DNA of 61,231 nt, filler included, from Dugesia japonica (lineage: Eukaryota), in NCBI GenBank assembly GCA_001938525.1. It is 5 parts of 5 records of this genome, joined end to end, with 100 filler letters (N's around TTAATTAATTAA, not from the genome) between each part and the next. Parts side by side here need not be neighbours in the genome. Positions count along the whole stretch, not along the records: positions 51,508 to 61,231 come from MQRL01624021.1; 4 more parts are not named here. One strand, given 5' to 3'. Numbering within the stretch: the stretch's first letter is position 1; each line of letters begins with the position of its first letter. A program made the translations under genes and the position numbers. The notes under the pieces were generated by a model. It was not told where the DNA came from and did not search any database. It worked only from the letters and a program-made list of their open reading frames with translations. Of the stretch, positions 1-61,231 are shown piece by piece.

Positions 1-1
1 G

Positions 2-307
2 TGGAAGGTGGTTGACTGACACAGGTATTAATGCAGGACCGTCCTGCCACGTACTGGTTATATGATTAGTTACGGGATCTACGGTAGTAACACGATGCAT
101 TACTTCTTGGGTGCGATTGAGGCTGTTCCATTGGTAAAAAGCTTGGCGCTCCGCCGCAGCCTATTCTCTCTCATTGTCTGCCTCTTCATTAGACAAGTTT
201 GAGTAGTCAGCTAAGATGCCCGCATTACGGTTATAAGAATTAGTGTATTTCTTAAAAATGGTACGTCCCGAGCGTCTGTCCCATAATACTTCTCACTTGT
301 TTTCCAT
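2..307 (-). pseudogene. Family A orphan ORF, homolog of 56619-56972; two in-frame stops, truncated by window edge
   Basis: Manual translation MENK*EVLWDRRSGRTIFKKYTNSYNRNAGILADYSNL aligns ungapped with MESIWEKVIDRRTHRIIFQRHHNPHNQDVGILADRLNL (18/38 identical). Confidence 0.8.
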
Positions 308-491
308 CCTAATATTATTAGTTTCTACAATGATGATCAAATTTAACAAAGAAATATGGAATTCTGGTGAAAATCATCGATGATAAACTGATAAACCAAC
401 AAGAAATAAACCAAATATGATAAAATAAATGATGAATAACTAATTTTATTTAGACTAAAAGATGTCAGAGATTTCATTTTGCAAGGAGTTC

Positions 492-674
492 TTACCCTTC
501 ATCAAGATCCACCGGAAATAATAAGGGGAACATCTCCACGAAACAAGCCAAATCGGTTTCGTCGGGATGTTCTATTAGATTAGGAAACAACCGATGTTCG
601 ATAAGTTGTCTTCTCCGTGCTATTTGGCATTGTCTTAAAATGAAACGCAATGTGTTTCTTAATTCTGCCGGCAT
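492..674 (-). CDS. Small hypothetical protein (60 aa) within family A copy 1
   Basis: ATG-to-stop ORF, GC-richer than its flanks, same strand as the other cargo ORFs; no recognisable domain. Confidence 0.45.
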   Translation of the reverse strand: MPAELRNTLRFILRQCQIARRRQLIEHRLFPNLIEHPDETDLACFVEMFPLLFPVDLDEG

Positions 675-1346
675 GATTTACAATAAGGGAATTAAATAGG
701 AAAATTAGAAAGTTTTAGAAGGCGGTTATTAATATATTAACTTATTCATAATTCTAGCCACCTCAGGCCTAGGGAAATTGATATCAGCGTCACTATATTT
801 GTTTATTAGCATAAGACTATTGATAGTGATTTGTGCATGAATGACTCAGAAAAGATTCCGATAGTACATTTATTCGCTATCTAACTACCCCAACAAAAAT
901 ATACTTGATAATCGTATTATTATTTAACTATGGCATTAAGAATAAATTATCGACGAATTAACCCCGGTGGCGACACAGATATATCACGATTATATTGATA
1001 GGTGCTGTTGCCAATATTGATTAACTAATAAAAGTAGTAGTAACATCCCCTCCTAGGTTTACCAAGTGGTAAAAACATAATTTACTAGTTAAAATGTCTA
1101 ACCACCATGGATGACCCAGTTCCTAAAAACAGTTATCATTCAGCATCACATTCATAATAAAATTTGAACAAATTGATTATAGTAATTTAATGCATAATAA
1201 ACACACAATCAAACAATGATATGTTGATTATAAATCTACTTTCACCTTAGCCGAAACCCAGATGAATATTTGGAAAATATAAACATGACAACGGGATTCC
1301 AGAATCAATGCGGCGGTTCGGGTCACTTGCATCAATTCCACTCTTC

Positions 1347-1502
1347 TTAGATATCATATAGGCCAATTTCAAACGCATAGTGAACGTGAAAAGAAAAATG
1401 GTGAGAGAAGTCTTCATTATAAATTGATAGGTTCAACCGCAAAAAGTTACAAAGAGAGAAAATAGTCGGCTTACATCGCCATAATGAGGGGTGAGCGATC
1501 AT
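1347..1502 (-). CDS. Possible small ORF (51 aa, MIAHPSLWRCKPTIF...) within family A copy 1
   Basis: Manual translation; preceded by a TGTTAG acceptor-like site; below the ORF-track cutoff. Confidence 0.3.
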   Translation of the reverse strand: MIAHPSLWRCKPTIFSLCNFLRLNLSIYNEDFSHHFSFHVHYAFEIGLYDI

Positions 1503-3280
1503 GGTAGGCACGACCTAACATAGAGTAATTTTTTCTGAATAATCTTAGATTCCAACAATATATTCCAACGACAACCGAGTGAATTCAAGTGAAGCACTAA
1601 TATCATTTATTTAATAATCATAAAATTACTAGGTAACTTACAATCTATTCAGAACAGACTCATCTTTCGATTGGCGGTTGGAGTGTGTCTAATCTAATAG
1701 TAGTTACATGCCAACTGGAAAAAGAAAAATTTCATATATCGATTTGTAATTATCTCCGGTACTGCTCGTATTGATGAAGGCAACAGTTACAAGAAGAAAT
1801 TTCGTTAGAATAAATATCTATGTGTGCATGCATCGAGCGGCTTTGGTGAATCGTTATGGCGACAATGAATTGTTAGTTGCCTACTAGTCAATTTTTATTT
1901 CGGTCGTGCTTATACACACCACGAGCAGCCTCACTGTATAGAATCGTGTGTTGGTGTGTGGGGAGTCGAATTTAGATAGATGAGTTTAACCGGCTTAATA
2001 AATGATTGCTCGTGGGATCATTGTGGCTTTATTCAATCTGACATAATAAGTAAGCGAACATGTAACCAAGGGACTTCATGTCTCTCCGGGAAATTAGAAA
2101 TCATTTCTGGATCATAATTAACACTTATCATCACCAGTTGATATCTGTCAAAAACATCTAAAATAAAGTCAGTGGTTGCAGTGTGACACGCAATATTGTT
2201 TCATCGATCATGGTAGAAATGAAAATCATAATGACCGCGAGTAAAAACCCCATACTCAATTATAGAGACACGTATTTTTAAGTTAATGAAAATCAAAAAT
2301 AAAATAACTAAAATTCATCTATTAATATATTAAGTTTAAATTTCAACATATTCTTATTCATACATTAACCAAAATTACAACATCAGCTTACTTAATTTCA
2401 GATTTCTCTATGCTGCAACGGGAGTAATAGCAGAACGAATTTTGGTTTGAGAATGCTTCTTCTGGTGTTTTTGATTTTATTGATTTTCTTTTCTAAAATG
2501 CTCAATAATTTCTCTGAACAAATTTATAAAAATTAAACCACTGATAGTGTCGAGTTTTCTCGTTGATGATTCCACAGATTTCGTTATGGCACTCAAAGTT
2601 TATGGTTTGCTCTGAATTAATGGAGCGGTTTTGATTAGAAAATGAATGAATTAATGAATTTTTGCTAAGTTTTCCGGCGGTTTAAATAGCTTTCTGGATG
2701 CAACCCGATTTGATCATCAGTGGCCGGCTATTTTTAATTTCGATTTCTAGTTTTCCATTGGCGTAGAATTGGATTTCTGAGAATTTTTGCTATTTTTCTG
2801 TTACACCATTGGCGTCTATTTTTTACTCCTCATGTGGTTTTTGAGTCTTTGTTTTATTTTTATTTTTTGGGTTGTTATTGGCTCAATCTTCCAACCCCTG
2901 TGATAGTCCTTCTGATGGTAGTAAAGTTTTTCAATTACGAAATCACATTGACCAGATAACACTTCTTTCCAATTTTTCTTACCGCAAGATTCTGGGATTA
3001 ACCAGAGTAGNNNNNNNNNNNNNNNNNNNNNNNNNNNNNNNNNNNNNNNNNNNNNNNNNNNNNNNNNNNNNNNNNNNNTAATTAATTATTTTGAAATAAC
3101 AAATTTGTTTGTTTTTATAATATAAATTTGATTTTTCTTTAATTAACAAAGATTGGATTCAATTATTCTTCAGATGTTTCTATTTTTGGCTCTTTCAGTG
3201 TTATTTTCTTATTCCCATTTTCTGTCTTCTTTTTCCTTTTAGATAACTGGTTGTTTCACCCCAACACTTCTATCAATTGT

Positions 3281-3357: not shown

Positions 3358-4379
3358 AAAAAATGTGATCGAATCTTTTTAATGAATTCAAATTTTTTTT
3401 ACCTAAATGTAATTAAAAACATTGTGGAAAGGAAAAGTTTAAGATTAAAAAAGATTTTACTGTTTTTTCTGATTACTTCATGTCATTGTATTATGTATAA
3501 GACGTAATTAGATTGCAGTTTTTGCTTTGCTGTCAAAAACTAGAATTTTGCACTTAATGCATAGCTTTTCTTTTTATATAGTGTACTTTGTATTTAGATT
3601 CTACTGTGTAACTTAAATATTTTTAGGAATCATAGTTATCATGAAACAAGTAAATAATCTNCTAAATAATTAATTTTGTTTATATAATAATGATTATGAC
3701 AATTTCCTTTGACAAAATTTTGCAAACTACAACAATAACATTATATATTCATGCACATAACCAATACAATGCATCAACAAATAAACGTTTTCTAGACGAC
3801 TTTCACACTCTGCAGATTACCAATAGAAATAAATTCTAATTGTCGCGAATCGACGTTCCTTTAAGAGGGAATGTTTTTGGAATTGCATCCTAAAATCTTA
3901 TAATATTCATATTTTCTATACGAACCATCAACAATACTACAATTACTTAATTACGAAATGCTCTGTATTTTCATTAATGATTTTATTTAAATTTAATCAT
4001 TCGAAATTTTTCTAACATATTTTATCAAACATCATTTATTAGAATAAGTTGTGGTTAGTAATTTAATAAATTTTAACCAACATCATTTTTCTAATTTCAT
4101 CACATTAAAATAATACTTATGTATTAAATTTTCCCTATTTTTTTTGGGTAATTCAATGAAGTATTTATTCTAATTGGTAGGTTTCTAGGGGTGACCGTTT
4201 TTTTCTTTGTTCAATATTGATCATAACGGCAGCTCAATCTAGGGTAACCTGGCCTGGTGAAACCCCAAAAAAATTTTAATCTAATGTCCCTGTTCTAGAT
4301 TTTCGTAATGGAACCGGTGATTTGTAATCCGTTGTTCGAGTGCATACTTGCATTCCTTTTGTTTGGTTTCAAACCTCAA

Positions 4380-6673
4380 TAATTTTTGCTCTGGTTTGAC
4401 AGACAACTTTGTTACCCCATTGATCAGGATGACTGTTATTGTGTTGGGTATTTCTACTCAACAAAATATTTATGGTTTGTGAATTTGACTTAATATATAT
4501 CGATAGGTATAAAATTTTACAAATGTTGATTTTATCCCTTTGTATGTGTAGATACTATATTATGTAATCGATATTTTACTGAAAACTAATTATTTTCTCA
4601 ATTAAAAGTTTGGCTATTGTCTCTGCAGTTTCATCTTTTGTAGGGAACGCTTTTGCCCATGTTGTGAAATAGTCATTAAATAAAAATATGTGTTTATTAC
4701 ATTTTATGGTTGTTGGTAATTTGCATAGAAAATATACTGCACACGTCTCCATTGGTGAGCTTAGTATTGGCATTGGTTGTAATGAAACTTTAATTTTTGT
4801 TCCTGTTTTTTTACTTGTGGCACAAATGGTACATGGTTGACATCATTTTTTCACATCATCCTTAAAATTATCCCAATAATACTTTTGCAACAATCTCGAC
4901 GTGGTTTTTCTACTTGATAGGTGACCTTTGAGTGCTCCATCATGGTATTGTAATAGTAATAACTGTTTTAGAGAATGTGGTACTACCATCACATTTTTAC
5001 CTAAGTTATTGTGCATGAACAGATTTTTATACATTTTATATTTAGTATTCTTTTCTTGAATCATTATCTCCTGTATTTTTTATCTTTATTTTGTTCGCCT
5101 AAGAACGTTTTTGGATTATTCATATACTGTGATACGACGGGCTCAAGTGTTACATCTATTGAGATATTGTTTTGTTTAAATACATCAAATAGAAAGGTTA
5201 GTACCCTTTTATTTTCGGTTGTATTATGTATAAAAAATGTGGGTTTAATAAAGAGATTCCAATCATTTTTGTTTTTATTTGTCCATAAACCCGTTAATGG
5301 TTTATGATCTGTTCGTATAACTATTTCAGTCCCATATATAAATAGTCTTAATTGTTTTAAANCAAATATAATAGCTAGAAATTCTTTCTCGATTGTTGAG
5401 TATCTTGTTTCCGTTCCTTTTAATATTCTACTCGTATATGCAATAACAACATCTTTATTTTTCTCGTCTTCTTGTTCTAGTACTGCCTGCATGGCATATC
5501 CGCTTGCATCTGTCATTACTATGAACTTTTTTGTGAAATCAGGATATCTCAATATTGAAGCTGTTAACAATCGCTGCTTTAGTGTATCAAAAGCTTCTTG
5601 TTGTTTTGGACCTAATTTCTTTTGAGGTTTCTGTGATTTCTCATCTAATTGTTCTACAATTATGACATTTTTACTTTCGGCTTGTGTTTTCATACATTTT
5701 GTTAATTCTACCAATGGTGCAGCTATTAATGCAAAGCTTTCTATAAATCTTCGATAATATCCAATTAGGCCGTCAAACCCTTGTAATTGTACACTTTTTG
5801 ATACTGAAAANTCTTGAACTGCTTTTACCTTTTCTGGATTTGGTTCTAATCCCATTGAAGATACAATATGTCCTAAGTACAAGACACTTTCCTCTGCCCA
5901 TTTACATTTTGTATGTTTCAATTTGATATTCGTTTTTTGATTCTCGATAATACATTTTCTATATTAACCAAATGTTGCTCAAATGATTCAGATGCTATCA
6001 ATATATCGTCCATGTATAGAAATACATGTTCTACACCAGAAAATACTGTGTTCATTAGTCNTGAGAAAGTAGCTGGTGCATTACATAACCCAAATGGTAA
6101 TCTAACAAATTTATACAATCCATCATCAGTGCAAAAATGCTGTCTTTTCTCGATCTTTCTTTTGTACTGAAATCACATTATAACCCTTATTTGCATCTAA
6201 AATTACAAAATACCATGCATTCATTAGCTTGTTGAATTGTTCATATATTTTTGGAAACGGATGTGTATCTTTTTTAGTAACTTTGTCGAGCTTTCTGTAA
6301 TCTGAACACATTCAAATTTCTTCATCTTTCCTTTTTACTGGTACTATTGGCCATGCCCATTGAAAAATACTATCTTGTATGATTCTATTTGCTTTCTGTT
6401 CTTGTATTTGTCTTTTTATCTCTGATCTTAACGCATATGGTGCTACATACGGTCATTGCTTTATTAGCCTCACATTACCTGTATCAATCATATGTTTTAT
6501 AATGTTTGTTCCTCCCATATCGAATTCATGTTTAGCAAATGCATCTTCATATTTATCCAATAATTTTAGTAGTTGTTGTTTTTGACACTTTGTATGGTCT
6601 TATAATGTTTGTTCCTCCCATATCGAATTCATGTTTAGCAAATGCATCTTCATATTTATCCAATAATTTTAGT
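4380..6673 (-). mobile_element. Degenerate Ty3/Gypsy pol (RT-RNase H-integrase), frameshifted
   Basis: RT motifs DYRKL, LDANKGY, LPFGLCNAPATF, YMDDILI, YLGHIVS. RNase H TDAS, YSTIEKE, TDHKPL. Integrase HDGALKGH..YYW and DYFTTWAKAFP. Gypsy domain order. Confidence 0.95.
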
Positions 6674-7314
6674 ANNNNNNNNNNNNNNNNNNNNNNNNNN
6701 NNNNNNNNNNNNNNNNNNNNNNNNNNNNNNNNNNNNNNNNNNNNNNNNNNNNNNNNNNNNNNNNNNNNTTAGCTTTCCAATTTCTCTTTGGTGATCTGCT
6801 ATAACTTCAAGTAGCTCATGAACACTTAATTGACTTGCCAATGTTTCAATTTTTTCCGCTGTCAATATGTTATGAGAGTAGACAGATAGTTCAGCATGGC
6901 CTCACGATACTCCCACTTCCTGGATAGAAAAAGTTTTGGAGCTTCAGTTTGATTGGTCAAATTTAAGCTGTATGATTACGCAAATTAGTGACATTAATAC
7001 TGAAATTTGATTGGTCCAAATTGTGTGTATGTTGGTTACGTAAAGATTACATTATAATTATGTAAAAATGGCGTAATGGTTATGCAATGATCGCATAATC
7101 ATAACATAACAATTATTCTTGTTTAAATGAAGTGAAATTATTGATTTTTTTTGTTTAACGAAATTAGTTATTTTTTGTTTGATATAATCGAAATGAATGA
7201 TTATTTGTTTTAATTTAATAAAACTAATAATTTTTGAGCTTCTTCACGGAAAAGTTATTTAAAAATTTATGTTAGTTTAAATTAAGCAAAATTTATCGAA
7301 TGTGATTTACTCTC

Positions 7315-11600: not shown

Positions 11601-12991
11601 ACTAACAGTATTGTTGGGCTGAAACAACCTTTCGTAAAATATGAAAGTTATAGAAGGAAATAAATTAAAGAGTAATAAGAAAATGAATAAAAATAAATAA
11701 ATAAATAATGAGAAATAAAAGAAATATAGAACATCTATGAGCACATAATCCGCTACAGAATTAACAAAAATAAAAATAATCACGTCCATATTTGGACATC
11801 TATATGGAAGCTACGGGTGAGCAAAGTACGATTTCTTGCATTAGCAGAAATCTGAGGTGGACGCCAACTGTATCTGTCAAAATTTGACAATAAAGTGAGA
11901 TATAAAAGGAAATCAAAATCATTAGAATAACACTCTTAAAAATTTCCATTAAACGCCATTAACTGTTTAATTAAATCAGAACAACTATCGGGAAAAGAAT
12001 TAAGGATTCCTTCTATTTTTATGTTATCGTATTTTAAATTGTTAAATGTTTTTTATTTTTTTGGAAGACACTGAAGGAGGGATCGTTGGGGGTTAGCTCT
12101 GCTATCTCTGAGGATCCATCTTATCAGCTACTTCCTCGCGAGATCTTCCACTCATAAATAACAAATTGACAATGTGTTGCAAGAAAGCAACGTGTCGCGA
12201 AATGATAAATATTAGCGTAGGGTAACAAGGAAGAAATGACAATTTCCTGTCTTGATAAATAAAAGAGCTGAGATGTTATACTATGATGATTAGAACGAAA
12301 AATTATTACTAGATAATAAACGGCGAATTGATTGTAGTGATAGAATGAGACACTCGTCGTTCACAACTTATTTTTCTATTAAACGCGAGTAACCTGATGT
12401 GGGAGGTGGGTGGTTGGATCTTTCTCCTTATTATATGACCATTAAACTGAAATAAACGATAGTTCATTGTATGTAAAAATATCAAACTTTAAACTATGTG
12501 TTTATTATAAATTAATTTCATATTGTATAATAAACATTTATTTGGATTACTGTTAATTGATTAATATTAATATCTTAGCTATAATTTCAGTATTTAAACT
12601 TTAAAGTTTTTTTAGATACGAAAATACACTTTGTGATATTACAATAGTGATGCTCTAAGAGATAGAAGGACCATTCATCATCCGGAGGGAATTGGATTCC
12701 TGATAATTCTCGATTGATTACAATACGGTCACCATGAAATATTATGTATAGTGATGTGGATAATCAGGTCTGAAATAGAAAGGGAGTATTCAATGAACTT
12801 CATAAAAGACTTCCATCTCCATCCAAGAGGATGAGTGGTCGATGATATATCAAGAGTAGTATGGATAAACGAAACGAGATTTATCGGTTAACATTCCTTT
12901 AATTAATAATATATACTGTTCTTTGAGTTGATTTACGATTTTTCAGTAGCCACATATTATTAACTTAATAATATTATTACTTCGAACATAA

Positions 12992-13501
12992 ATGACCCAT
13001 CAATTCGTGAGAGCAGAAGCCATCGCCAGTTTAAGTGAAGCAAGACTCAGTTTCAACAGCGGTTCAAACAGTAGCATGTCTCACGTTTGGGATTCCAAAG
13101 GGCTGGAAGATACCAATACCGAGCCCTGGTGAATGATACAAGATAAAATAAATCATAAGGAGGATTGCATCAAAAGGCTGGAGGAGAAAATGGCTAGTCA
13201 GGAACAACAACATTTCGAGAAATTGAAGCGATTAGAGGGAAAAATCAGGGAACAAGAGCAACAGTATGAGCATCAATTAACCAAAGCTATCATGAATCAG
13301 GAGGAAAGAGAAAAAGAGCTGGTCGCTCTGCTTATCAAATCCCCCGAGTTGGCCAAACAATAGCAGCAGGTCATTCAGTCCATGCGATCAACGCAAATCA
13401 AGGCGGACGAATACACAAAGATATCTGAGGGACTGTTGACAAGAACCGAAACAATCCTGCGACAGATTTTGATACAGTTGGACGAAACAAGTGACCTTTA
13501 A
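12992..13501 (+). pseudogene. Coiled-coil orphan ORF (~169 aa, two in-frame stops), family A copy 2
   Basis: Track ORF 13133-13363 extends in frame both ways: MTHQFVRAEAIASL...PW*MIQDK...LAKQ*QQVIQSMR...DETSDL*. Heptad-like E/K/Q/L composition. Confidence 0.65.
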
Positions 13502-13787
13502 ACGACATAATGTGAAATGTGTTAAATATAATAAAATTCTATTCTAATCACATCCTTCATAATTAATATTATTAAAGATTTAATACAATATAAAGATTTA
13601 AAGATAAAATGATTAAATGTTGATAAGTAAATACTCAATGATAATATAAAGAGATAAAATGTGCAATAATTTAACTCTATCATTATAATAAAAATTAATT
13701 AATTATTACGAATTTATGTAATAAAATTGTTATACCGATAAAATCGAACTATTTTATGATGAATGATTAGTCTATTTAAATTATAGA

Positions 13788-14135
13788 ATGTCAATGAGAA
13801 TCANNNNNNNNNNNNNNNAAGAGTTGTTGATCGATCAGCGCGTGGCCAGACTAGAACTAAAAAGGCTACGTAAGGAAAACAAAGAACTACGAGAAACGGC
13901 CAGCCTCACCAAACGAAGAATATCTACTTTGCGAGAACGGTTGAGTGTGAGTCGCCGGAGAGAACTCACACTCATCGCGAACAACCGAATGTTTGTCGAG
14001 ATAATAAAATCCTATGCAGATCGAGAAACATCCGTCCTCGCCAACGTAAAGACATTATGAAAGGAATATGAGGTGAAAAACAAAAGTGACGATGAATGTG
14101 TGATTACCGAGGAAACAGTCTTCGGGTCACCATAA
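13788..14135 (+). pseudogene. Coiled-coil orphan ORF homologous to 56019-56377 (one internal stop)
   Basis: SRRRELTLIANNRMFVEIIKSYADRETSVLANVKTL vs SHSQECIWKRQVESFSEMIRSSHDRENKLVSDILLL, ungapped, 10/36 identical (F.E.I.S..DRE). ATG preceded by TTATAG-A. Confidence 0.65.
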
Positions 14136-14213
14136 ATTATGTCAAAATAAATGTGTAATTATTATCGAAGTCTCTTCATTGTTTAAAGAATAAATTGATT
14201 CANNNNNNNNNNA

Positions 14214-14463
14214 GCCATAACAACTAAGACTTTCTAAAAGACGGGATACCGCATAGTCCCGCATGGACTCGGGGTGGATGGAGCAATGCATTGAGTGTTG
14301 CCAAATTTTTGCCGGCTCCGGGGTATCTGCCCCGAGAAGATAATTCGATAAAAGGAATGTCAAGAAAGAAGTACCAAGAGTTACAATAAAGGAAATAAAA
14401 CATCAAAACCTCGGAGCTCAACAGAAATTTTGGGAGCTCATCCAGGATTTCATAATAAACTGA
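14214..14463 (+). pseudogene. Degenerate third small ORF of family A copy 2
   Basis: GC-rich island translating as ..RMDSGWMEQCIECCQIFAGSG.. with several stops. Confidence 0.3.
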
Positions 14464-15996
14464 TCCTAGAAAAGAAAAATTGTTAAAGCATAGCCAAGAT
14501 TGAATATTTAATTTTTAAAAAAATGGTTTGTGACCAACACCACAGATTATATCGTAATGATGATTTCAATTTGATAACATCTTTAAATTGCGAGTGTCCT
14601 GCACGGGTTGGTTCATCGGAGACGGAAGCATGTGGTATGTTTTGATCGAGATGATGACCTTAATAATAAAATATTCTGTTATTAAGTATAATTATAAAAA
14701 ATATTCGAATAAAAATAACTGAAATTTTATACGTTAATTTTAGCTTTTAACAAATATTTGTAGAAAAAATCCACAAATGAATAAAAGGACTAAATAAAAA
14801 GAAAATTACAAGAAACAGTTTTTCTATTTTCTTAAGAAATTTTAGAAAACTTTTTTTGCAATACGAATTTAAAGAGTTAATGCATATTGTAATATAATGC
14901 ATGTTTTTTGTAATAATACTAATAGGAGTTGAACAAAGAAACAATCGGACACTTTTTGTAGATGAAATATGAAAAACTACATGAACACAAAAATGTATTT
15001 ATCAATTTTGTGCAAATCAAAGAGGATATGACGACAATAAACGAAGAAGAGAAGATGAGGATCAGTTCAAGGATATAAATGTACAAATAAAAGTAGAAAT
15101 TGATTTTTATTTTCTATTGATTGATTTTTCTATTTTCTTTTTTTTCTTATTTGTTCTGCTTGTTTTTCTTAATGTGCTTAGAGAAGATTCAACTACCATG
15201 GACGACAGAAACGAATTTCAATAAAATTACTAACATGATAAAAATTAAATATGAAGTCCAGAACTTATTAGGAGCTCAGGATAAAATGAATTTTTTTGAG
15301 AAATGAGTGGATGATGTCGGAAAATAGTGAGAATTTGTGCATTCCTAATAATAATTATTTTGATATTTTAAATGATTTTATTTATATATTGATATTTTAA
15401 TGAATATTATTTAAATCGATGTTTGCACTGTAAGTAAAATTTAACTAAGTGAATTTCCGTAATAATTGAACATTAATATTTTGGAGTAAACCATTGAACA
15501 GTAATAATTTTTGTTATAAATTTGAAGTAAATTTTAGCAATAAATTAATTAAAATTTTGAGATATTGCAACCACAAATAATTGTTTTGTTTTTGATTATT
15601 AATTTAATGATTACGAATATAATGAGCTGAGCTAACATAAATAGTTNGGGGGTATTATTTAACTAGCATGACAATTAACAGAGGTTTGATGGGTGCACAC
15701 TGTTGAGTTAGTGATATTTTAAAATGATTTTACCTATTTGATGGTTCGCTTTTTACTTTAAATTTTCTTAAATAAATTCGAGCAAAAATTGAAGAAAAAT
15801 AATGTTAAAGATAATGATAATAAATGAGATTTGAAAATTGTGATAAAATTATTTAGATAAAAATTAATTAATTATTAAGTCCTGAAATGATTATATTGGT
15901 AAAGAACAGACAAATTGTTTAAATAATTAACCTCAGTGTCGATAATATTTCTGACATTTCAGGAAACCCACTAAATAATATACGAAATTAATTTAC

Positions 15997-22276: not shown

Positions 22277-23484
22277 TGTTGGGGTTTTACCCTAGGTGGG
22301 TTGATTTCTTATATGATTAAATCTAGCGGAGTCGAACTTTATATAAAATTAAGTCTAGGATAATCAACATGGTAAAACCCCGCGATGAATTTGAATCTGG
22401 TGTCCCCCAAAATATCCAGATCTTCGGAATGAAGCCGTTGACTCTTAACTCGAGTACAGACTCGCACTCCTTTGGTTCGGGTTAGTTTTACATGTTACTC
22501 GCTTGATTTACTAATCACAATTAGCCTTTACAATTATCCACTTATAATTTTCCGTTTAGTGGGGTGATCCTTAATTCGGTCATTCTATATTTGTTTATAA
22601 TCTTAATAGCCATATTATCAATTTGGAAAAACAAAAGAACTTTTAACTGAAAAATATTTTATATTATTTAAATTTCACTTGGAGTACAATAACCTAACTA
22701 ATAACATAATTAACAAAACTAACGTAACCTTGATCCCGATCTGGAACAAAAACAAGACCATAACATCCATCCCATTCGTCCAATAGTGACTTCCGAGGTC
22801 CTAAATAATAATAAGTCATAGCAATCCAGTCGGAAACCGTTGTTTGCAATCAACAACGAGAAATTACTGTAGAATCAATTCTTCGCTTCAATAATAATGT
22901 TGATTGTACTCCTGAAATTTAGGTGCTTCCGAATCTATTGTTACTCTTCTTGTAATTAGAAATTGGTGCGATCAGATTTTTTTATACTTTCCTTTAATGA
23001 AAATTTCATCGGTATTTATACCAGATTCGTCGACGCCTTCCTTCGTTTCATTGGTAGATATAAATTCTCGGTGTTTTCATTGGCTAGATGGTCACATGTG
23101 TGTTTTTCATTGGTAGTTATTTTGGGATTCCAAAATTATTGGTCCATTATCAAACCTTTGTAACTTCTTTCTTATCCTTGCCATGATTTTCTATCTTTGA
23201 TTTTTGAAATCCCCGATTTTTTCTTGACCCGAATTTTCTAAATTGATAATTTTGGCGTCACTATAAGTCCTAATTTTCTTAGTTTTTTGGTAGAAAATTT
23301 AATTTTCTTTTTAAAATAAATGATTTTAACTCTTATGATTTATTTTATTTAAATAAATAAATAATTTATTTTATTTTCTTTGTGTATCTTAATTAAGTGT
23401 TCATTTCTTAGTTTTGTCTGATTTAATTTTAATTTAATTTCATTGTTTTCTTCTATTAATTAATTCATTTAATTAATTTTTTCT
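22277..23484 (-). mobile_element. Family A short LTR (inverted, truncated at scaffold end)
   Basis: Terminus TGTTGGGGTTTTAC at 22277. 22400-22485 is closely similar to the reverse complement of 41001-41085. Multiple CCAAT boxes 23060-23145 and TATAAATA near 23015 on the minus strand. Confidence 0.75.
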
Positions 23485-52905: not shown

Positions 52906-53819
52906 ACTCATTTGTCAATATTTATTTATAAATAATCAGTATTCAATGTATCAATATTAAAGTGACCGATTTAATTTGAATAATAACTAACATGTCAGTA
53001 TAATAACTAAAAGATCGGCATATAATATAATGTCAGTATTAAAATAGCAATGGGTCAGCATGTAATAAAAGACATCAGTGTTTTGATATAAAAAATCTCA
53101 AATGTTTATGTATGGTTATTTTATGTAGTAAATGTTTTAATTTTAATAATTTTTAAATTACTATTTTGATTATTATTTTATGTTTAGTATTTATTTTATT
53201 TGGGAAATAAAATTTAAAACGTAAATTATTATTATTCTGATCATAAACGTAATATGGNNNNGGAAACTGCTTTTTAACCAGCAAGCAAAAGGAAAAGTCA
53301 ACAAACTTGGATTGAAATGAGCACATTATAAAAAACGTCAACAATGACAACCCACAATTTTCAATGCTGCACTTTTAATAGATCAAGTATTTTGTATTTC
53401 AACGTGTAAGTTGGCATATTTCTGTATTTGATTAATAAAATCTTTTTAATTTTTGTAATTTGCTTTTTTCTTTAACAAAAATCAGCTTAACACTACTGTT
53501 AATAAAGAAAGAAAATTAAATACAGAATTGGAAAGATTTTAATATATTTTGTATGTATCTTCAGATTCTTTGCAACAAATTCTCAAGCGAAAAATAATCA
53601 TACTGACATGTCAATCTTTTCACTANCCATATATGAAATACAATACTGATTAGTTTTTTAAGTTATATTGAAAGCAATTTAAAATTATACGTACATATTT
53701 GAAATTTTCTACTGACATTTTAATATTTTTTGATGATCAGATTTTAAATAAAATACTGACAATTTCGATATAAAAATACAGAGAGTTTAGTAAATATATC
53801 TTAATAATAATATGTTCTC

Positions 53820-54045
53820 TACGCAATTTCAATCCCAAAATTCTTTGGAAATATATTCCAGCCATAATATCTGGAAAAACGTTTTCTACAACTACAAATT
53901 CTATCTTCTTTACTATTTCTCCCAGTTGAACTTCTACCATAACTCTACCTTTAGTTACCAAACCACTTCCATTAGCACATCGTAATCTGTCATCTGATAC
54001 TTTTAAACAAATTCGCGACCAACTACTGAAACATTTTTCATTCAT
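53820..54045 (-). mobile_element. Retrotransposon aspartic-protease-like fragment
   Basis: LRCANGSGLVTKGRVMVEVQLG..IEFVVVENVFPDIMAGIYFQ, typical of the second half of a Gypsy retropepsin. Confidence 0.7.
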
Positions 54046-54270
54046 AACATTAATGCAAGCTCCTTGAATTTAGGGTTCTCGTTAAACATGTTTTCTGTAC
54101 CATGACAAGATGCATTATCCACCAATAACAAAGCCTTGATTGGGAGACTTTTATTGTAAATGAAGAGTAACTTAAAGGATAAAGATCTCATTGTACTAGG
54201 TTTTAAAATTGGAACTCGTTTGCCAAGCATTTTTTGATGNAGCCCGCTTGTGAAATATTTTGGAATTTTT
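54046..54270 (-). mobile_element. pogo/Tigger-type DDE transposase fragment
   Basis: LPIKALLLVDNASCHG motif. Confidence 0.65.
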
Positions 54271-55099
54271 GAATATTTAATTGCTTTTTTCCAGTAGTTC
54301 TAACTAAAATTTAACCAATACCGTTCTGTTTGTCATATCATTGCACATATAATAATATCAATTTTATTGTAAAAAAACATAGTTTTAAATGAACTTTGAC
54401 CAATTTAATTGATAAATACCTTTGGCTGCCATTTTGATTGGTAAGGAAGCATTTTTCGATAAAAGTTTATGAGTCAATCCTGACTTACTTTTCAATATTT
54501 TATGTAAATCCGAAAACCTAATTTCTATGCCGCATTGTCGGTAGAGATGGGTACTATTTACCTACTATATAAACTCTGTAAAAATAAGTAGAGAAATTAA
54601 TAATGAAGCTCCGTTAATACCAACTCTTTCTAGTACTTTAAAAGTATAGTTATTTCTCTTCTAATGCGGTATGTATTTAATGCGTCATAGAAGACGGACC
54701 TAGAACACCGTGTAACGCACTGTTTATACAGAATTAACTTAAATAAGCTTTATTTATAATTATTTCCAAATTTGACATTTTGACATTTACAAGGGATAAC
54801 TGTATATATAAAATATTTATTAAATGATGAAAACATTGCATACCTCATTTTAGTAGATTATATTAAAAAAAATTTGAAAAAAATAAATTTGAAAATAATA
54901 AAAGTAAATTTATTTTCCAAATATAAATATATTATAACAACCACAATAGTAACATAACATTTAAATTTGAAAATTGAATAAAAATGTGATGATACAGGAG
55001 TTTTCACTTCTTAAACAAATCTATTTTATCATGAAGAATATAAAGAGATGTCTGAATTAAAAAGTCACTATATATTGCGTACAGATATAGATACATTTA

Positions 55100-55630
55100 T
55101 GTAGAAATAAAACATTTCCAATATTTTAAAAAAAGTGGTCTTGTAATGGTTGACAATTTGTCTCTTATTTTGACAATAATTCTTATGAACTTTATTGAAA
55201 GTCTAATAATTCTTAAAGCAAAGAAGAAAATATTTCTATTTTTTAGATACACCGACGATATTTTCTTTGTTACTAATTCTCTTTTAGAGAATATTTTGGA
55301 ATTAGTCACAAGTATTAATGATAAAATCAAATTCAATTTAGAGAAGTCAATTGACTTTCAGATTCTTTTTTATGGACCCCTTAATATAAACGAAACCTGA
55401 TGAAATATACACTACCCAGTTATATATGAAACCATTTCAAAATTGACATATATAACACTGGAGTAGTAATACTATACTCAGATAGAAAATTAGAATAAGT
55501 GAAAGAATAAGAGAGAAAAGACTATCTTCAAATGAAGAAATGAAATTGNCTTGTCTCGGGTTGATAAAAAATAAATTCTTAAATAATGACTATCCAAATA
55601 AAATGATAACGAAATATTTATCTTTGACTA
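55100..55630 (+). mobile_element. Penelope-like element reverse transcriptase remnant
   Basis: MVDNLSLILTIILMNFIE..FFRYTDDIF..SINDKIKFNLE and downstream LNNDYPNKMI, a PLE-type RT/thumb pattern. Confidence 0.7.
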
Positions 55631-55638
55631 AACAAATA

Positions 55639-55886
55639 TCACTGCTTTAGGAACTCTATTTTTCTTTGCAAAATTTGTTTGGTTTCAGCTTCCAGGGCCT
55701 TAGTTTCGATTGCTAAATCACCCTGTTTCTTTATTATGTGGTCGAGTTTTTTAATTAGCCTATCCCGTTGATTTAGGTGCCTTAGTAGAGCTTTATCTGT
55801 CTTCCGTTTTAAATGTCGCTCTACCAACAGGCGGCGCATTATACAGTTATATCGACGGAGGTAATTGGGAAAGTGGATGTGAGGCA
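55639..55886 (-). CDS. Basic coiled-coil small protein (family A cargo)
   Basis: Open frame PHIHFPNYLRR...QILQRKIEFLKQ following a TTTTATTTTTCAG acceptor-like site. Confidence 0.6.
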
Positions 55887-56018
55887 CTGAAAAATAAAAT
55901 AAGTTTAATATACAAGCGTTCGACCACAAAACTCAAGCAAAAATTAAGGCAATAATGGAATCCGTAAAGAAAAATTGAACAATAAGTTTATTAACAAAGA
56001 AAAATCATTTCTATATGT

Positions 56019-56377
56019 CTAGTTGCAAGGGGTCTGGGTGCCCTTCTCGATCATCAGCGGCTCGAGAGGGATTTTCTCCCGGAGAAGTAAAATGTCACTA
56101 ACCAGTTTATTTTCTCGGTCGTGGCTGGACCGAATCATCTCCGAGAAAGACTCTACTTGTCTTTTCCAAATGCACTCCTGGGAATGGGAGGCTTCTGCTT
56201 CCTTTTTAAAGAGGGTGCATTTTTTCTTATAGCGTAGGACATTACTGTTGGCTGTGGCTACCTCAGCTTCCCATCGTCGTTTGGCTAACCGATACAAGTC
56301 CTAAGTGCGTTCGAGGTCCTTACTGGTATCTCGGATTTTCTTCGTGGGGGCTGGAGGGCGATTGAACGAGTAATGCA
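56019..56377 (-). CDS. Coiled-coil small protein (family A cargo; one internal TAG)
   Basis: HYSFNRPPAPTKKIRDTSKDLERT*DLYRLAKRR... following CTTTTCTTTTTAG. Homologous to 13788-14135. Confidence 0.6.
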
Positions 56378-56618
56378 CTAAAAAGAAAAGACATATACAT
56401 ATTATCGAAAAATAGCACTCATAACTTTATGTTCTACAAGATGCAGCAGTTACGAGTCCAATCATTAAGTTTTAGACCATCTAAATTGATTAAAAAACCT
56501 AGAAAAACACCTAGAATTGGAAGCAAATCAAATCTCTTAAAAATTATCCAAGACATTGAACATATATTTTAGACGAGGACAACCACATAATTTTATTGTA
56601 CATTATATATATGAATCA

Positions 56619-56972
56619 CTAAGGAGAAGTTGATGAATCTGGCGCTGGTGCGGCTTTTTCCGAGTCTTTGCTACCCGAGGGTTCTCTTATTCCCCACAGC
56701 AGGTTGGTGATATAGGCCTGTACCGCGGGAGCTGAGGGTGCTTTTTTAGGCTGGTATTGGAATGGTGTTGCAAGGGTGCAAAGAGGGCCAAACCAGACTT
56801 GGTATCGTTGACGCTCGCCAAAGATTCTTATGCGTTCAACGATGGATTCTACCGGCGGCAAATTCAATCTGTCGGCCAAAATGCCCACGTCCTGATTGTG
56901 CGGGTTGTGATGTCGTTGGAAGATAATTCGATGGGTCCTCCTATCTATCACCTTTTCCCAGATCGATTCCAT
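56619..56972 (-). CDS. Intact 117-aa orphan protein (family A cargo)
   Basis: ATG-to-stop, GC-rich against its flanks, with a diverged homolog at 2-307. Confidence 0.75.
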   Translation of the reverse strand: MESIWEKVIDRRTHRIIFQRHHNPHNQDVGILADRLNLPPVESIVERIRIFGERQRYQVWFGPLCTLATPFQYQPKKAPSAPAVQAYITNLLWGIREPSGSKDSEKAAPAPDSSTSP

Positions 56973-59256
56973 TCTATAAGTAATAGAAAGTCTATTTAAA
57001 TTAATTTATCAATTAATAGTAAATAGAAAGAAACAACAAATAGAATTAGTCAAAGTATTAATTTATTTCAGACAAATAACCAATATGAATGATATGTTTT
57101 GCTACTTTAATTCATAGGCGACAATGATTAAGATGCGAATATTAGTCATATGGAATTTACTGGGTAACAGCAACACTAAAACTTTTCACTCTAACTGGAT
57201 AAACAATGATAATTAACGATGAGTGTGTCTATCTGATATTTTACTGCCAAAACTCCTCAGTTCCAGACTAGTGGTAGATGCGTTGAAGTTACTTTTCTCG
57301 ATTGCTGCGTCACAAATAACATTCCTACGATATTAACAAAAGTTTCCGGTGATAATATAGCATAAATTGGGGACACTATGTCGTTGTATTAGTCAATTTA
57401 ATAAATGAAAAGATTATTCGTGGATATTTTCTCGTTCACTGGAATTAATGCGTTCACCTATTCATGTCGTTTTGGAATTATATAATCTATGGTTGGAAAA
57501 CAGTGAGCTATCTATTGAAAAATAAATAAAAATAATTGTGAATTCTTTATTGTAATTTATCTATTAATTTGTTTTTTCTTTTACTGTAAAATAATTTATT
57601 TTGTTTCTAAATAACATTTATTGTCATAACAGATACAAACATTATAGTATAAAGTATATATAAAATTTACATTTTTAATCGAAAAACTTGTTTCTGCAAC
57701 GGGTAAATATTGGGAACCTGCAATTAAATAATTTGATAGGTGATCTCTTCTTCGTTTTATCTTGATGAATTAATCGTTTTTCCGTCCGGTCGACACTATG
57801 ATTTCTCTTTACAGTGTCAGTGATAGCGGTTGAACCAAATGATTTTTGCTTGAGTTAATAGTGGCTGTTTATAGTGGTGGTTTTTAAGAAACTTGAATTA
57901 ATATCCTTCCAAAATAGTTTGTAATAATACACAGTAGTGCTAACTTAGCTAAATTGGAATTTTTCTTGTTGTTTTTCTGCTAAAGTCAGGGGCCCATTTA
58001 TAGGATTTTCTCATGCACCCCGGCATCATTTCTATTGGTTTTTTATTTTTAGTTTGAAATCACGGATTTTCATTGGCGTTGGTGCAACTTTTCTGGAATT
58101 CCGTGGACTTTTCTGTGATTCCGTTGGCAGTTACTTTGGGATTGTCAGGTGAGCTTTTGTTCTTTGTTATATTTTTATTTTAAATCTCCTATTGGTCCAA
58201 TCTTGGGGACCCTGCAGCAACCCTCTGGAAGGTGGTAAGTTTTTCTTTGTAGTAATTTCAACTGCATCTTGATATTTTCTTTCCGTATTTTCTTATCCTG
58301 CTTCTTTCTGATTTTCCTGAGTGAAGATATTCGGATAAAACGAATTTTTTGTTAATTTCACTTCTTTTTTTATTTAAAATAAATTAATATTTTTCTTCTG
58401 TTAATTGATTATTTTCATACCGATTTTCTTGGTTTTATTATTATTTAATAATTCTTCTTAATTCCGCTACCGATATAGTTTGTTTTATGACACTTAAATC
58501 GTTGAACCCACCTTCGATGGTAGTTTAGTCCTCTTTACAGATTATTTCCGTTACAATCTTTCCAAATTATAATTGCTTTCTTCTTTTGAATTCTATTACA
58601 AGTAAATTTACAGGTTCTACCATTCTTCTTTGCCGATTTTGAATTTTTGGTCTTATTACCTTTCTTCACGGGTGTTTCACCCCAACACAATAATTAATTT
58701 TTTTACAATAATTAAAATGTTTAAAAAATTAGTAAAAAATTAGAGTTTTAATATTGTAATATTTTAATGTTAATAAAATACATATTTTAAATATTTGAAT
58801 ACTTTATTGTATTAATTGTTTTTTTTTTAAAAATTTGAGAAATTTCAATTCAATTTAATAAAAAGGTTTTTTAAGATTTAATTTTAATACAAAAAAATTA
58901 TAATTTAACTAGACCAATAAAATCTTTTTGTAGCAAAAATCTATTGTCGTTTTGAATTTATCAAAAAGTCATCATTCCTGAAAAATACAAGTGTTGAAAA
59001 TTTGAATTTCTTTAAAAATACATTTTATTTTGATCGAATCTTTTTCTTTATTTTATTGAAATTTTTGAGGTTCAATTTTACTTTTCTTTTCCGATCAACT
59101 TTCATTGAATAATCATTATTGTTGTATGAATCTATGAACATACTTAAGCCCTGCAAGTATTTGTAAATTCTCTGTGACATGCCTCAATTTTATGTTTATT
59201 CTTAGATGCCATACATAACCGAAAAAATAACTTAACAATAGTATTACTAAATTTCA

Positions 59257-59463
59257 TTAACCATCCAAGTCTACTGTATTTTCCTTGTTATTGGGTTCCT
59301 CTTTCGGCGGTAGGTAAGTCAACCACACAGTTTGAAGAGGGACGACGAGGGGTGATTCCCGTTCAGCGTAGATTTTTATAATATCAGCTGACTCGGTTGG
59401 CTTGCTGTAACGCCACTGTCTTTCCTTCAATTCCAGTAGTATACTTTCATATTTTGTATACAA
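59257..59463 (-). CDS. Small hypothetical ORF, probably an element-derived remnant
   Basis: Protein-like composition in a GC-richer island; TTG start only. Confidence 0.3.
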   Translation of the reverse strand: MYTKYESILLELKERQWRYSKPTESADIIKIYAERESPLVVPLQTVWLTYLPPKEEPNNKENTVDLDG

Positions 59464-60289
59464 TCTTTTTAATCTTATTATTTTGTTTCACAGTTCCCCT
59501 ATTCTCATCTTTCCATCGCTTTGTATTGANAACACATTTTTTTGGCACCTGCTCGTCGTTTTATTGATTCACTAAATTATTTGTTAAAGGATTATGATTG
59601 TGAAAATAGTATTTAATTAAAGAAAGACTTTAAATATGTAAATTTCGTTTTAAAAATTGAAAATTAAAAGTCTCGAATATAATTTTAATTTATTATAATT
59701 TATTTGAACAAAACAAATCTCCGCCCTATAGGTTACTGGTTTATAATTCATTTTGAACATCAGTAATCAACATTTTTAGATATAGAGGTCAATTTCCCAT
59801 GATTCCCGTTAATTGGCAAATTTATTCATCCTATTAACTTTCAACAATCGACCTGTTACACCCTGCTTCTACAGTTTAGACGCAACACTTCCAAAATAAA
59901 AATTATTGTGACATACATATCACAGAAAATTTTCTATTACAACAACATTAATAAATTCATTTATACAAAACTGATTTGTCAGATATTGTCAATCAGACCC
60001 ATCAATTCTGTCATCAATGAAGCCTCTTCCATTCATTCATCTTGTTTAAACAGTTGTTATATGAGTTCTTGAACAATGGCGTTTTCTGTATCAGTCATTG
60101 GTAGTTGTTCCGCAACTTTATGCAAAAAGGCACTACATATTTTAATATGCCCTATCTCGTTGGCTGAATGCTGATTGCCTGAAGTTTTCTTTTGCAATAA
60201 GTTGCCGCTACATTAATTCCATCTCAGATCTTAATTCTCTCAGTGTCTGTTTAGATTGAGCTCTCGCATTTTCCATCATCTCTTGGACC

Positions 60290-61231
60290 TCTGTTTACTC
60301 AATGTAATAAAAACCATTGGAGTCGATGTATGGTCACATATAATGTTTTATTTTAATCCTTCTATAGTCACGGTTCAAGTGGTCCATCTGCCAGCAACAA
60401 TCTTAATTAAACGTTAATTACTAAATATAAATTTAATTTTCAATTCAGTTATTATAATGAATTTTTGGCATGTTACCTTATATTTTGTGTTCCTCTACTC
60501 CTGAAGTAGTGCCCAGGGAAGATATCCGCTATTAACTGTTATCTTTCTTCATCCATGATTTACCGGAGCATTAGCAAAATTTCCTTAATATTTTCAACCA
60601 GACAATATTTATTTAATACATATTAATGTGAACATAATTATGCCTTAAGATCATTATTTAATCGTTCAAACGTTAGCTTTGACTTAATTCGACATTTCAA
60701 TTCTAGTATTAACTCCAACGACCTCTTTAATAATAAACTAAACGTAATCAAGGATTTTCGAAAAACTATTCATTTTAACATTCTATTACTGTAAAATTAT
60801 TATTACATCCACATTTGAGACTAGTGATATAAAATTTAATATTCATTTAAAGTTGACAATACCCAAAACTACTAAACCACAGTGGGAGAATTAAGTGAAC
60901 TAAGAGGAAAATGTATTAAGCATTGAGGTTTATGACCAAGTTCCCATGTCAACAAATGCGAGTAATTTCTCTTTTAGACTCTCCACGTCTTCTTTGCAAC
61001 TTTTGACTGCTATCTTGGCAACGATGTTTTTGACTCATAATTTCAGTCGTTAATTCGATGGTGATAATTTTATGTTTCTTACACTTCTCGAGCATCCCAT
61101 CGGCGGTGATAATTTCGACATTTTTCATAATTTTCGATCATCGAATTAGTTGTAATCACTTTTCCCTATTCATCGTATCTCATTACTCAATTAACTGACA
61201 CTTTTTACATATTTTCGGGCAATATATATAT
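60290..61231 (-). mobile_element. Family B partial copy
   Basis: 60490-60590 similar to 38155-38255; 60931 TATGACCAAGTTC as at 38599. Confidence 0.55.

What the first reader, a model, noticed from the sequence alone, without database searches (positions are those of the whole stretch)
55639..58687. LTR-like family carrying a variable cassette of small orphan genes downstream of its own promoter
Seen: four segments share the 5' terminus TGTTGGGGTGAAA or a variant (3266-, 11612+, 39863+, 58687-). A fifth, at 22277, carries the 3' terminus. All five have a TATA box, four with clear CCAAT clusters. The short form (39863-41156) is a complete ~1.3-kb TG..CA solo LTR with a 4-bp TSD. The three long forms continue >=3 kb and hold about three GC-rich small ORFs each, separated by AT-rich spacers. 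The ORFs are homologous between copies at protein level: 2-307 vs 56619-56972 is 18/38 ungapped, and 13788 vs 56019 shares F.E.I.S..DRE. ORF content differs per copy. I found no LTR end or primer-binding site between promoter and ORFs. Inference: these are expanded 'coding LTRs' with exchangeable accessory genes unrelated to gag/pol/env, whose protein sequence was conserved during divergence.
Basis: partly seen in the sequence, partly recalled or inferred. Interest (0 to 1): 0.85.

Follow-up and report, generated by a model that had tools for sequence, protein, structure and literature searches.

The report
Retrotransposon ends carrying spliced accessory genes
Several decayed jumping-gene ends in an animal genome each carry a promoter followed by a row of small, unfamiliar protein genes that appear to be read out one at a time by alternative splicing; whether these genes sit inside the terminal repeat itself is still open.

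Summary
Mostly confirmed. Four segments share the 13-bp end TGTTGGGGTGAAA (0-1 mismatch; simulations gave at most 1). The small ORFs were under protein-level selection: E1 vs A6 is 25/60 identical, identity by codon position 53/60/25%, pN/pS 0.41. An open 94-aa relative exists elsewhere. New: each ORF looks like a separate terminal exon, with AATAAA within 60 nt of the stop in 6 of 7 ORFs versus 11 of 96 control ORFs and acceptor-like sites upstream. Not shown: that the ORFs lie inside an LTR. No long copy has a 3' end, PBS or PPT; the only element with both ends (39863-41156) has no demonstrable ORF; long and short forms are at least three promoter families sharing only the terminus. Best reading: accessory-gene cassettes at the promoter end of Ty3/Gypsy-type elements, working like Drosophila MDG1-group sORF1/2 plus gypsy-env-style splicing, with new protein families. 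LTR boundary unresolved.

The parts
58675..58687 (-). E: LTR-type 5' terminus (TGT..., 9-bp inverted match to the 3' end of C)
57995..58200 (-). E: promoter, CCAAT at 58195, 58076, 58038 and TATA at 58002; colinear with the promoter of A
57660..57994 (-). E: predicted non-coding leader, still alignable with A (about 50% identity), followed by an AT-rich intron-like stretch
   Evidence: splicing inferred
57090..57511 (-). E0: module with an acceptor-like site at its start but no intact ORF; possibly a further leader exon or a decayed ORF
   Evidence: homology to A and B modules not significant
56619..56972 (-). E1: intact 117-aa ORF, ATG one base after an acceptor-like AG, AATAAA at 56597; family with A6 and P0121
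56019..56377 (-). E2: basic, heptad-periodic ORF from an AG|TG acceptor, one in-frame stop near its start, AATAAA at 55992; family with B3 and G3
55639..55886 (-). E3: open frame from an AG|TG acceptor (81 codons; 66 aa from the ATG at 55839), basic, heptad-periodic; no relative found; no canonical AATAAA within 400 nt
55056..55560 (+). Penelope-like RT relic (recognised by eye from motif order, label recalled) that abuts and truncates the E cassette
59257..61231 (-). G: fourth cassette-like segment, 5' end off the window; last ORF G3 (59487-59257) belongs to the E2/B3 family; upstream modules decayed
1..3266 (-). A: terminus, CCAAT cluster (2881-2761), TATA 2688, decayed modules, ORF A5 (674-492, 60 aa) and ORF A6 (307-2, two in-frame stops, runs off the window)
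11612..14660 (+). B: terminus (1 mismatch), TATA 11901 without CCAAT, ORF B2 (12992-13501, two in-frame stops), ORF B3 (13788-14135, N gap and one stop), decayed modules; right end not defined
22277..23484 (-). C: short-form LTR-like element, 5' end lost in an assembly gap; CCAAT x4, TATA 23020, 3' terminus
39863..41156 (+). D: complete short-form solo-LTR-like element in an (AAT)n run; no demonstrated ORF
4174..4463 (-). F: piece 65% identical to the last 220 bp of D, lying 110 bp downstream of a truncated Gypsy integrase on the same strand
4576..6900 (-). Decayed pol in the order RT, RNase H, integrase (Ty3/Gypsy type); broken by stops and frame changes
   Evidence: RT_RNaseH_2 E 7e-32

Best explanation
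A, B, E and G are decayed promoter-proximal ends of Ty3/Gypsy-type LTR retrotransposons (at least two long families, plus a related short-LTR family C/D/F that shares the integrase-recognised terminus). Each long element carries a row of accessory genes downstream of the LTR promoter. Steps: (1, shown) terminus, CCAAT/TATA promoter and ORFs lie on one strand in that order; (2, shown) two ORF families were conserved as protein while synonymous sites saturated; (3, shown statistically) ORFs end at their own poly(A) signals; (4, inferred) one short leader exon is spliced to one of several acceptors and the RNA is cut at that ORF's poly(A) site, giving one small mRNA per gene; for E2 and E3 the acceptor reads AG|TG in frame, so a leader ending in A would supply the start codon, as splicing does for Drosophila gypsy env; (5, inferred) the products are small soluble, mostly basic helical proteins without a membrane segment, so regulators acting on the element's RNA or on host silencing (Rev/CERV-like export or anti-silencing) are more likely than fusogens; (6, inferred) full-length genomic RNA reads through these signals, and cassettes diverge by recombination or loss of whole acceptor-ORF-poly(A) modules. 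Whether the LTR's right boundary lies before or after the cassette is undecided (about even).
For: Terminus not by chance and of the TGTNR type described for Gypsy ends (PMC2836005). F links the C/D 3' block to a Gypsy pol on the same strand. E1/A6: pN/pS 0.41 (bootstrap 0.28-0.58), 16 of 23 identical degenerate codons differ synonymously, permutation p 2e-4; P0121 is open and 55% identical to A6 over 60 aa. E2+G3 profile finds B3 as best non-self hit, E 0.005; B3-G3 DNA score 42 vs control maximum 34. AATAAA within 60 nt of the stop in 6 of 7 ORFs vs 11 of 96 other ORFs >=60 aa, and p 0.002 against AT-rich background. The four E modules start at AG sites in the top 0.5-7% for pyrimidine content; of 178 strong acceptor-like sites in the window only 3 continue TG plus >=20 open codons and 2 of these are E2 and E3. 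No hydrophobic 19-mer above 1.1 in 9 of 9 proteins. Precedents: MDG1 sORF1/2 with a short RNA ending after sORF1 (PMC11952523); splice-made ATG in gypsy env (PMC2585583); spliced CERV of Cer1 (PMC10309623 abstract).
Against: No gag or pol is joined to A, B, E or G; the nearest same-strand protease relic (54050-53800) is separated from E by two other relics. The Gypsy link rests on F's adjacency and on a shared terminus, and the long families do not cross-detect C/D. Acceptors of A6, B3 and G3 are weak (background fraction 0.45-0.89), acceptor sites were picked by eye, and the AG|TG pattern was noticed after the fact. No donor ending in A is firmly identified in E; the candidate shared leader exon in A, B, E is not significant. 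The 7 ORFs counted for poly(A) exclude A6 (no stop in the window) and ten decayed modules. No RNA data. Protein function is inferred from composition only: Pfam, PHROGs, PDB and fold searches gave nothing usable.
Confidence: 0.6

Rival explanations
1. Coding LTR: the cassette lies in a greatly expanded R-U5, is present in both LTRs of full-length elements and is left behind in solo LTRs as a self-contained multi-gene unit. This is a sub-case of the best explanation as to expression, differing in the boundary.
For: 5' termini survive at 13/13, 13/13 and 12/13, yet no equally conserved 3' terminus, TGG-type PBS or self-priming match lies between promoter and ORFs in A, B or E. D already has about 700 bp downstream of its TATA with a donor-like site. 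Very long LTRs are known (Ogre 1.9-6.5 kb, PMC6431247).
Against: No far end or target-site duplication for B, E or G; D, the only two-ended element, failed the coding test (best-of-six-frames p 0.135; D-F fixed frame p 0.44). It needs minus-strand strong-stop DNA of 2.5 kb or more and read-through of several poly(A) sites.
Confidence: 0.3
2. Internal 5' accessory ORFs (MDG1/Burro/Ogre layout): the LTR ends about 1.3 kb in, its end and primer site have decayed or are non-canonical, and the ORFs sit once between 5' LTR and gag.
For: This layout is the documented one (PMC11952523 section 7; upstream accessory ORF in a Burro-like element, PMC6431247). A has a 2-mismatch match to D's 3' end at offset 1310, close to D's length of 1294.
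Against: That match is at the chance rate (0.2-0.5 per kb of strand), is not followed by TGG and has no counterpart in B or E; no gag follows any cassette.
Confidence: 0.33
3. The promoter fires inward from a 3' LTR and the ORFs are antisense to gag-pol (Grande/Retand/HTLV-like).
For: [quoted passage not shown] It would explain the missing PBS.
Against: No CA followed by a reverse polypurine tract in A, B, E or G; in F the LTR-like piece has the same orientation as pol.
Confidence: 0.1
4. Non-autonomous or non-retro elements (LARD-like mini-elements, or Ginger-like DNA transposons with Gypsy-type ends) carrying cargo genes.
For: No gag/pol joined to any cassette; Ginger ends are also TGTNR with 4-bp duplications (PMC2836005).
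Against: Ginger inverted repeats are 40-270 bp; D's ends match over about 9 bp only, and D has LTR-like promoter anatomy.
Confidence: 0.17
5. Ordinary host genes or chance ORFs next to LTR promoters.
For: The ORFs have no known viral or TE relatives in the libraries searched.
Against: Four cassettes in 61 kb, mostly with in-frame stops, always on the promoter strand; codon-position pattern excludes chance for E1/A6.
Confidence: 0.04

Closest known systems
Drosophila MDG1 group (412, mdg1, Stalker, blood) sORF1/sORF2 (PMC11952523; passages and section 7 read)
   Same: Small (70-110 aa) accessory ORFs downstream of the LTR promoter and upstream of gag, low dN/dS, an internal poly(A) site giving a short RNA that ends after sORF1, ORF loss in some members.
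   Different: MDG1 RNAs showed no splicing and carry two ORFs in the internal region; here there are three or more modules each with its own poly(A) signal and acceptor-like site, no membrane segment or MGxxxS/T, and no LTR end before the ORFs.
Drosophila gypsy env splicing (PMC2585583; passages read)
   Same: Start codon assembled at the splice junction from a 5' leader and a 3' acceptor, as proposed for E2 and E3.
   Different: There AT+G and one downstream env gene; here A+TG is inferred, several acceptors, non-env products.
C. elegans Cer1 CERV (PMC10309623; abstract and outline read)
   Same: Novel accessory protein of an LTR retrotransposon made from a spliced RNA; model for a nuclear RNA-export role.
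   Different: No sequence relationship tested or known; one gene, not a cassette.
Planarian Burro and plant Ogre giant Gypsy elements (PMC6431247; passages read)
   Same: Gypsy elements with long LTRs or upstream accessory ORFs in repeat-rich genomes; Burro occurs in an AT-rich animal.
   Different: Burro cargo has recognisable domains (BIR, MATH, BCL2, ankyrin) largely inside one polyprotein; none was found here. The host of this window is not identified, and Burro LTR sequences could not be compared.
Plant antisense additional ORFs (Grande, RIRE2, Retand) (PMC7264820; parts 1-2 of 3 read)
   Same: Family-conserved orphan ORFs, some nuclear or coiled-coil, with their own transcription.
   Different: [quoted passage not shown]
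MMTV sag and HIV nef (recalled, no call)
   Same: Protein-coding sequence inside an LTR.
   Different: Those ORFs lie in U3, upstream of the transcription start; here they would lie downstream of it.

Membership tests
Ty3/Gypsy LTR (short family C/D/F) | TG...CA ends with short inverted repeat | tested here: met
   C ends CCCCAACA; D runs TATTGGGG...CCCCCACA (one mismatch at each end)
Ty3/Gypsy LTR (short family C/D/F) | 4-5 bp target-site duplication | tested here: inconclusive
   D lies in (AAT)n; phase fits 4 bp but also 1 or 7; C lacks its 5' end
Ty3/Gypsy LTR (short family C/D/F) | Linked pol in order RT-RNase H-integrase | tested here: inconclusive
   F lies 110 bp after a truncated integrase on the same strand, without a polypurine tract; adjacency could be a separate insertion
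Ty3/Gypsy LTR (long segments A, B, E, G) | 5' terminus TGTNR plus internal Pol II promoter | tested here: met
   A, B, E; G's start is off the window
Ty3/Gypsy LTR (long segments A, B, E, G) | 3' terminus with matching target-site duplication, or paired direct repeats | tested here: inconclusive
   None found; A runs off the window, E is cut by another relic, matches are at chance rate
Ty3/Gypsy LTR (long segments A, B, E, G) | PBS after the 5' LTR or PPT before the 3' LTR | tested here: inconclusive
   No end-like CA plus TGG, no reverse PPT, no self-priming match of 11 nt; copies are decayed and host tRNAs were not available
Ty3/Gypsy LTR (long segments A, B, E, G) | gag-pol in the same element | not testable with these tools
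   No full-length copy in the window and no eukaryotic genome collection
MDG1-group sORF2 / FAST-like fusogens | Central transmembrane segment and N-myristoylation motif | tested here: not met
   Maximum 19-residue hydropathy 1.08, no MGxxxS/T in 9 of 9 proteins
MDG1-group sORF1 | Position between 5' LTR and gag; sequence relationship | not tested
   No sORF1 sequence was fetched; boundary unknown
Ginger DNA transposons | Terminal inverted repeats of 40-270 bp | tested here: not met
   D's two ends match over about 9 bp (feature from PMC2836005); not testable for A, B, E
Burro giant Gypsy elements | 25-kb internal region, polyprotein with BIR/MATH/BCL2/ankyrin domains | not testable with these tools
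   No internal region attached; no such Pfam domain in the cassette ORFs; primary paper not held
WW domain (E1 N-terminus, resemblance by eye) | Three-stranded sheet with two signature tryptophans; Pfam WW match | tested here: inconclusive
   Low-confidence model has three short strands then a helix (pLDDT 52.6); no Pfam or PDB match listed; no second tryptophan at the recalled spacing

The most novel reading that the evidence does not exclude
The long elements have 3-5 kb LTRs whose R-U5 part has become a multi-gene transcription unit: one leader spliced to several alternative last exons, each with its own poly(A) site, encoding new protein families that are swapped between element families. 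Every solo LTR would then be an autonomous, mobile expression cassette for several regulatory proteins.
Probability: 0.3. Interest if true: 0.8.

Novelty: new variant of a known kind. Interest (0 to 1): 0.55.

Why it matters
Accessory genes of LTR retrotransposons are poorly catalogued in invertebrates, and the few studied ones turned out to do RNA export (CERV) or to be linked to cell-to-cell spread (sORF2). Two new, selected ORF families with an alternative-last-exon layout give direct targets for such tests. If the cassette proves to be inside the LTR, solo LTRs would scatter ready-made protein-coding units through the host genome, which repeat annotation would mask and gene annotation would miss.

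Tried and rejected
Homologue searches for E1: none at E<=0.1 among 9 candidates; one hit, P0121, in 1.84 billion representatives; the 3-sequence profile returned only P0121 among 116 candidates (lengths 51-205 aa only, so fused forms were not searched); no relative among 183 pattern matches in bacterial and archaeal genomes; ESM Atlas gave no usable hit for E1 or P0121. E2, E3, A5, B2, B3 and G3 were searched only against Pfam and PHROGs and the window; four window ORFs were also looked up by exact sequence and not found. Structure of E1: pLDDT 52.6, best Z 3.1 of 48,161 chains, no viral match at E<=0.001; uninformative, not evidence of a new fold. WW-like look of E1: not backed by any library. 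A coding frame, by eye chromodomain-like, in the conserved 3' block of C/D/F: pN/pS 0.29 in the best frame but p 0.135 after allowing for six frames, p 0.44 in D vs F, no Pfam or PDB match; rejected. F's start as a true 5' terminus: it also aligns to internal D sequence; not relied on. Shared leader exon in A, B, E: motif AGACAC(AC)TC occurs exactly three times, once in each, but single-sequence and two-sequence profiles do not cross-detect, and shared 10-mers do not exceed controls; kept only as a lead. B2 related to G's middle module: not detected. 3' ends guided by target-site duplication for B and E: only chance-level matches. No tRNA gene; Rfam found only a 5S relic. Host: EPRS is 56-61% identical to animal EPRS proteins from many phyla with no close relative; planarian was considered from AT content and Gypsy load but is not established. 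Literature searches for ORFs inside Gypsy LTRs returned 0, 0 and 1 irrelevant paper, and one search listed none by title or abstract; these are phrase searches of open-access text, do not cover Repbase or Dfam, and supplements were not read, so a prior description of this family is not excluded. Viral and metagenome contig collections stayed unchecked.
Full report
Setting. The window is a 28% GC draft assembly with many N gaps. It holds an uninterrupted glutamyl-prolyl-tRNA synthetase frame at 47549-51376 whose ProRS half is 56-61% identical to animal EPRS proteins of many phyla, with no close relative in the collection, and many transposon relics. The host is therefore a divergent animal; it is not identified further. 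Labels: A 3266-, B 11612+, C ending 22277-, D 39863-41156+, E 58687- (the finding), F 4463-4174-, G 61231-59257-.

Termini and promoters. The 13-mer is exact in A and E and has one mismatch in B and D. In 200 simulated windows the count at one mismatch or fewer averaged 0.08 and never exceeded 1. C and D end in AAAACCCC(A/C)ACA, an inverted match of about 9 bp to the 5' end, as expected for integrase attachment sites; TGTNR ends are described for Gypsy and Ginger elements (PMC2836005, passages). All five have a TATA-like box; A, C, D and E have 3-4 CCAAT boxes upstream, B none. D starts with TA, is 1294 bp including 55 N, and sits in an (AAT)n run where the phase fits a 4-bp duplication without proving it.

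One family or several. A and E align over promoter and leader (61% over 360 bp by blastn; 340 of 643 columns overall). C and D align with each other (63% over 431 bp, 77% over 157 bp). Across the groups, profiles give E 0.69, 1.4 and 3.6, and B matches only in its first 90 bp and in AT-rich stretches. So there are at least three promoter types sharing one terminus. D is not simply the short form of E. F is 65% identical to D's last 220 bp and lies 110 bp after a truncated integrase of an RT-RNase H-integrase relic on the same strand, which ties the short family loosely to Ty3/Gypsy.

The ORFs are real genes. E1 (117 aa, intact) and A6 (two in-frame stops in 60 codons) are 25/60 identical without gaps; blastn misses the pair, tblastn finds it at 9e-9. 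Identity by codon position is 53, 60 and 25%; synonymous sites are saturated (pS 0.99) and pN/pS is 0.41, bootstrap 0.28-0.58; permutation p 2e-4. A search of 1.84 billion representatives found one relative, P0121 (94 aa, E 9e-7, unnamed ENA record), open throughout and 33/60 identical to A6. This family is supported but much weaker than the first. E3, A5 and B2 have no relative in the window. E thus shares promoter and one ORF family with A, and another ORF family with B and G; the E1-family gene is the first ORF in E (offset about 1.7 kb) but lies at offset about 3.0 kb in A. Exchange of modules and differential loss both fit.

What the proteins are. No Pfam hit reached its curated cut-off, PHROGs and PDB gave nothing, and the E1 model is too poor to interpret (pLDDT 52.6). 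None of 9 proteins has a membrane segment or myristoylation motif; E2, E3 and B3 are rich in Lys/Arg (21-24 residues), and E2, E3, B2 and B3 show their strongest hydrophobic periodicity at 3.5 among the eight periods tested. They look like small soluble helical proteins. A nuclear regulatory role is an inference from this and from precedent.

Exon-like layout. AATAAA follows the stop within 10-56 nt in 6 of 7 ORFs with a visible stop (E3 lacks it); the rate is 11 of 96 for other ORFs of 60 aa or more in the window, 0.14 for random positions and 0.26 for AT-rich windows (binomial p 0.002 on the last). A6 and ten decayed modules were not counted. The four E modules begin at AG sites in the top 0.5-7% for pyrimidine content, while those of A6, B3 and G3 are unremarkable; E1, A6 and B3 have ATG one base after TAG, against 5 of 57 ATG-started ORFs window-wide with AG that close. 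E2 and E3 begin AG|TG in frame; only 3 of 178 strong acceptor-like sites in the window do this with 20 or more open codons. A leader exon ending in A would complete the start codon, much as gypsy env gets its ATG from splicing (AT+G; PMC2585583, passages). These sites were chosen by eye and the pattern was seen after the fact; the donor is not pinned down.

Where the LTR ends. No 3' terminus, TGG-type primer site, reverse polypurine tract or 11-nt self-priming match was found in A, B, E or G. A has a 2-mismatch match to D's end at offset 1310, but such matches occur at 0.2-0.5 per kb. A runs off the window; E stops against a Penelope-like relic at about 55560, followed by a pogo-like and a protease relic (labels recalled from motifs). 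D, the only two-ended element, has no demonstrable coding frame. The 'coding LTR' claim is therefore neither shown nor excluded. For it: well-kept 5' ends with no matching 3' end before the ORFs in three copies. Against it: no far end either, and the known layout for such genes is internal.

Comparison. The closest working model is the Drosophila MDG1 group: two small selected ORFs between LTR and gag, with a short RNA ending at a poly(A) site after sORF1 and no splicing seen (PMC11952523, section 7). Cer1 CERV is a spliced accessory protein needed for RNA export (PMC10309623, abstract). Burro and Ogre show long LTRs and upstream accessory ORFs (PMC6431247, passages); plant antisense ORFs are a different geometry (PMC7264820, parts 1-2 of 3). 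PMC8532177, PMC11410931 and bioRxiv 10.64898/2025.12.11.693146 (passages) added nothing on LTR structure. Phrase searches for ORFs inside Gypsy LTRs found no matching report, but repeat databases and supplements were not searched.

Verdict. A real feature: LTR-type promoter ends followed by cassettes of selected orphan genes with an alternative-last-exon layout. It works like known accessory-ORF systems of Gypsy elements; the protein families were not found in any library searched, and the multi-exon cassette goes beyond the described cases I read. New variant of a known kind, interest 0.55; the fully novel case (genes inside both LTRs) has probability about 0.3 and would merit 0.8.

Noticed in passing
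window 47549-51376 +: Uninterrupted EPRS frame (no introns over 3.7 kb, no WHEP domain hit in Pfam); the linker between the two synthetases is 8.4 copies of a 30-bp repeat (49586-49837). N-terminus lost in a gap.
   Followed up: partly
window 51752-51842 + and 51800-52700: 5S rRNA match (43.9 bits) next to several 60-110 bp direct repeats; could be a 5S-derived SINE or decayed 5S array.
   Followed up: no
window 59950-60420 and 60920-61231 -: Decayed coiled-coil-like frames in cassette G upstream of G3; no relative detected in the window.
   Followed up: partly
window 895 -: A 9-bp match to the 5' terminus inside cassette A on the element strand, with no promoter behind it; probably chance.
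   Followed up: partly
window 33494-35452 +, 30649-31720 -, 53800-54050 -: Further decayed Gypsy-type pol and protease relics, not linked to the terminus family.
   Followed up: no
window 42160-42477 +: Small RING-finger ORF (Pfam zf-C3HC4_3 E 1e-7) running into a gap; nearby 43322-44026 - frames resemble Polinton-type sequence by eye.
   Followed up: no
window 7500-9830 and 20100-21630: Two degenerate minisatellite fields with 20-21 and 41-bp periods.
   Followed up: no
window 16900-19950: Nested inverted repeats around a central palindrome at 17986-18085, like a foldback or MITE-type element; smaller palindromes at 3277-3361, 24322-24456, 33027-33194, 41354-41580.
   Followed up: no
window 23485-23584, 32658-32757, 42426-42525, 51408-51507: Four identical gap markers (44 N, 12 bases, 44 N): artificial scaffold joins, so adjacency across them is not evidence; C's 5' end is lost at one.
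   Followed up: yes
window 36560-36817 + and 54050-54805 -: Mariner-like and pogo-like transposase relics (labels recalled from motifs).
   Followed up: no
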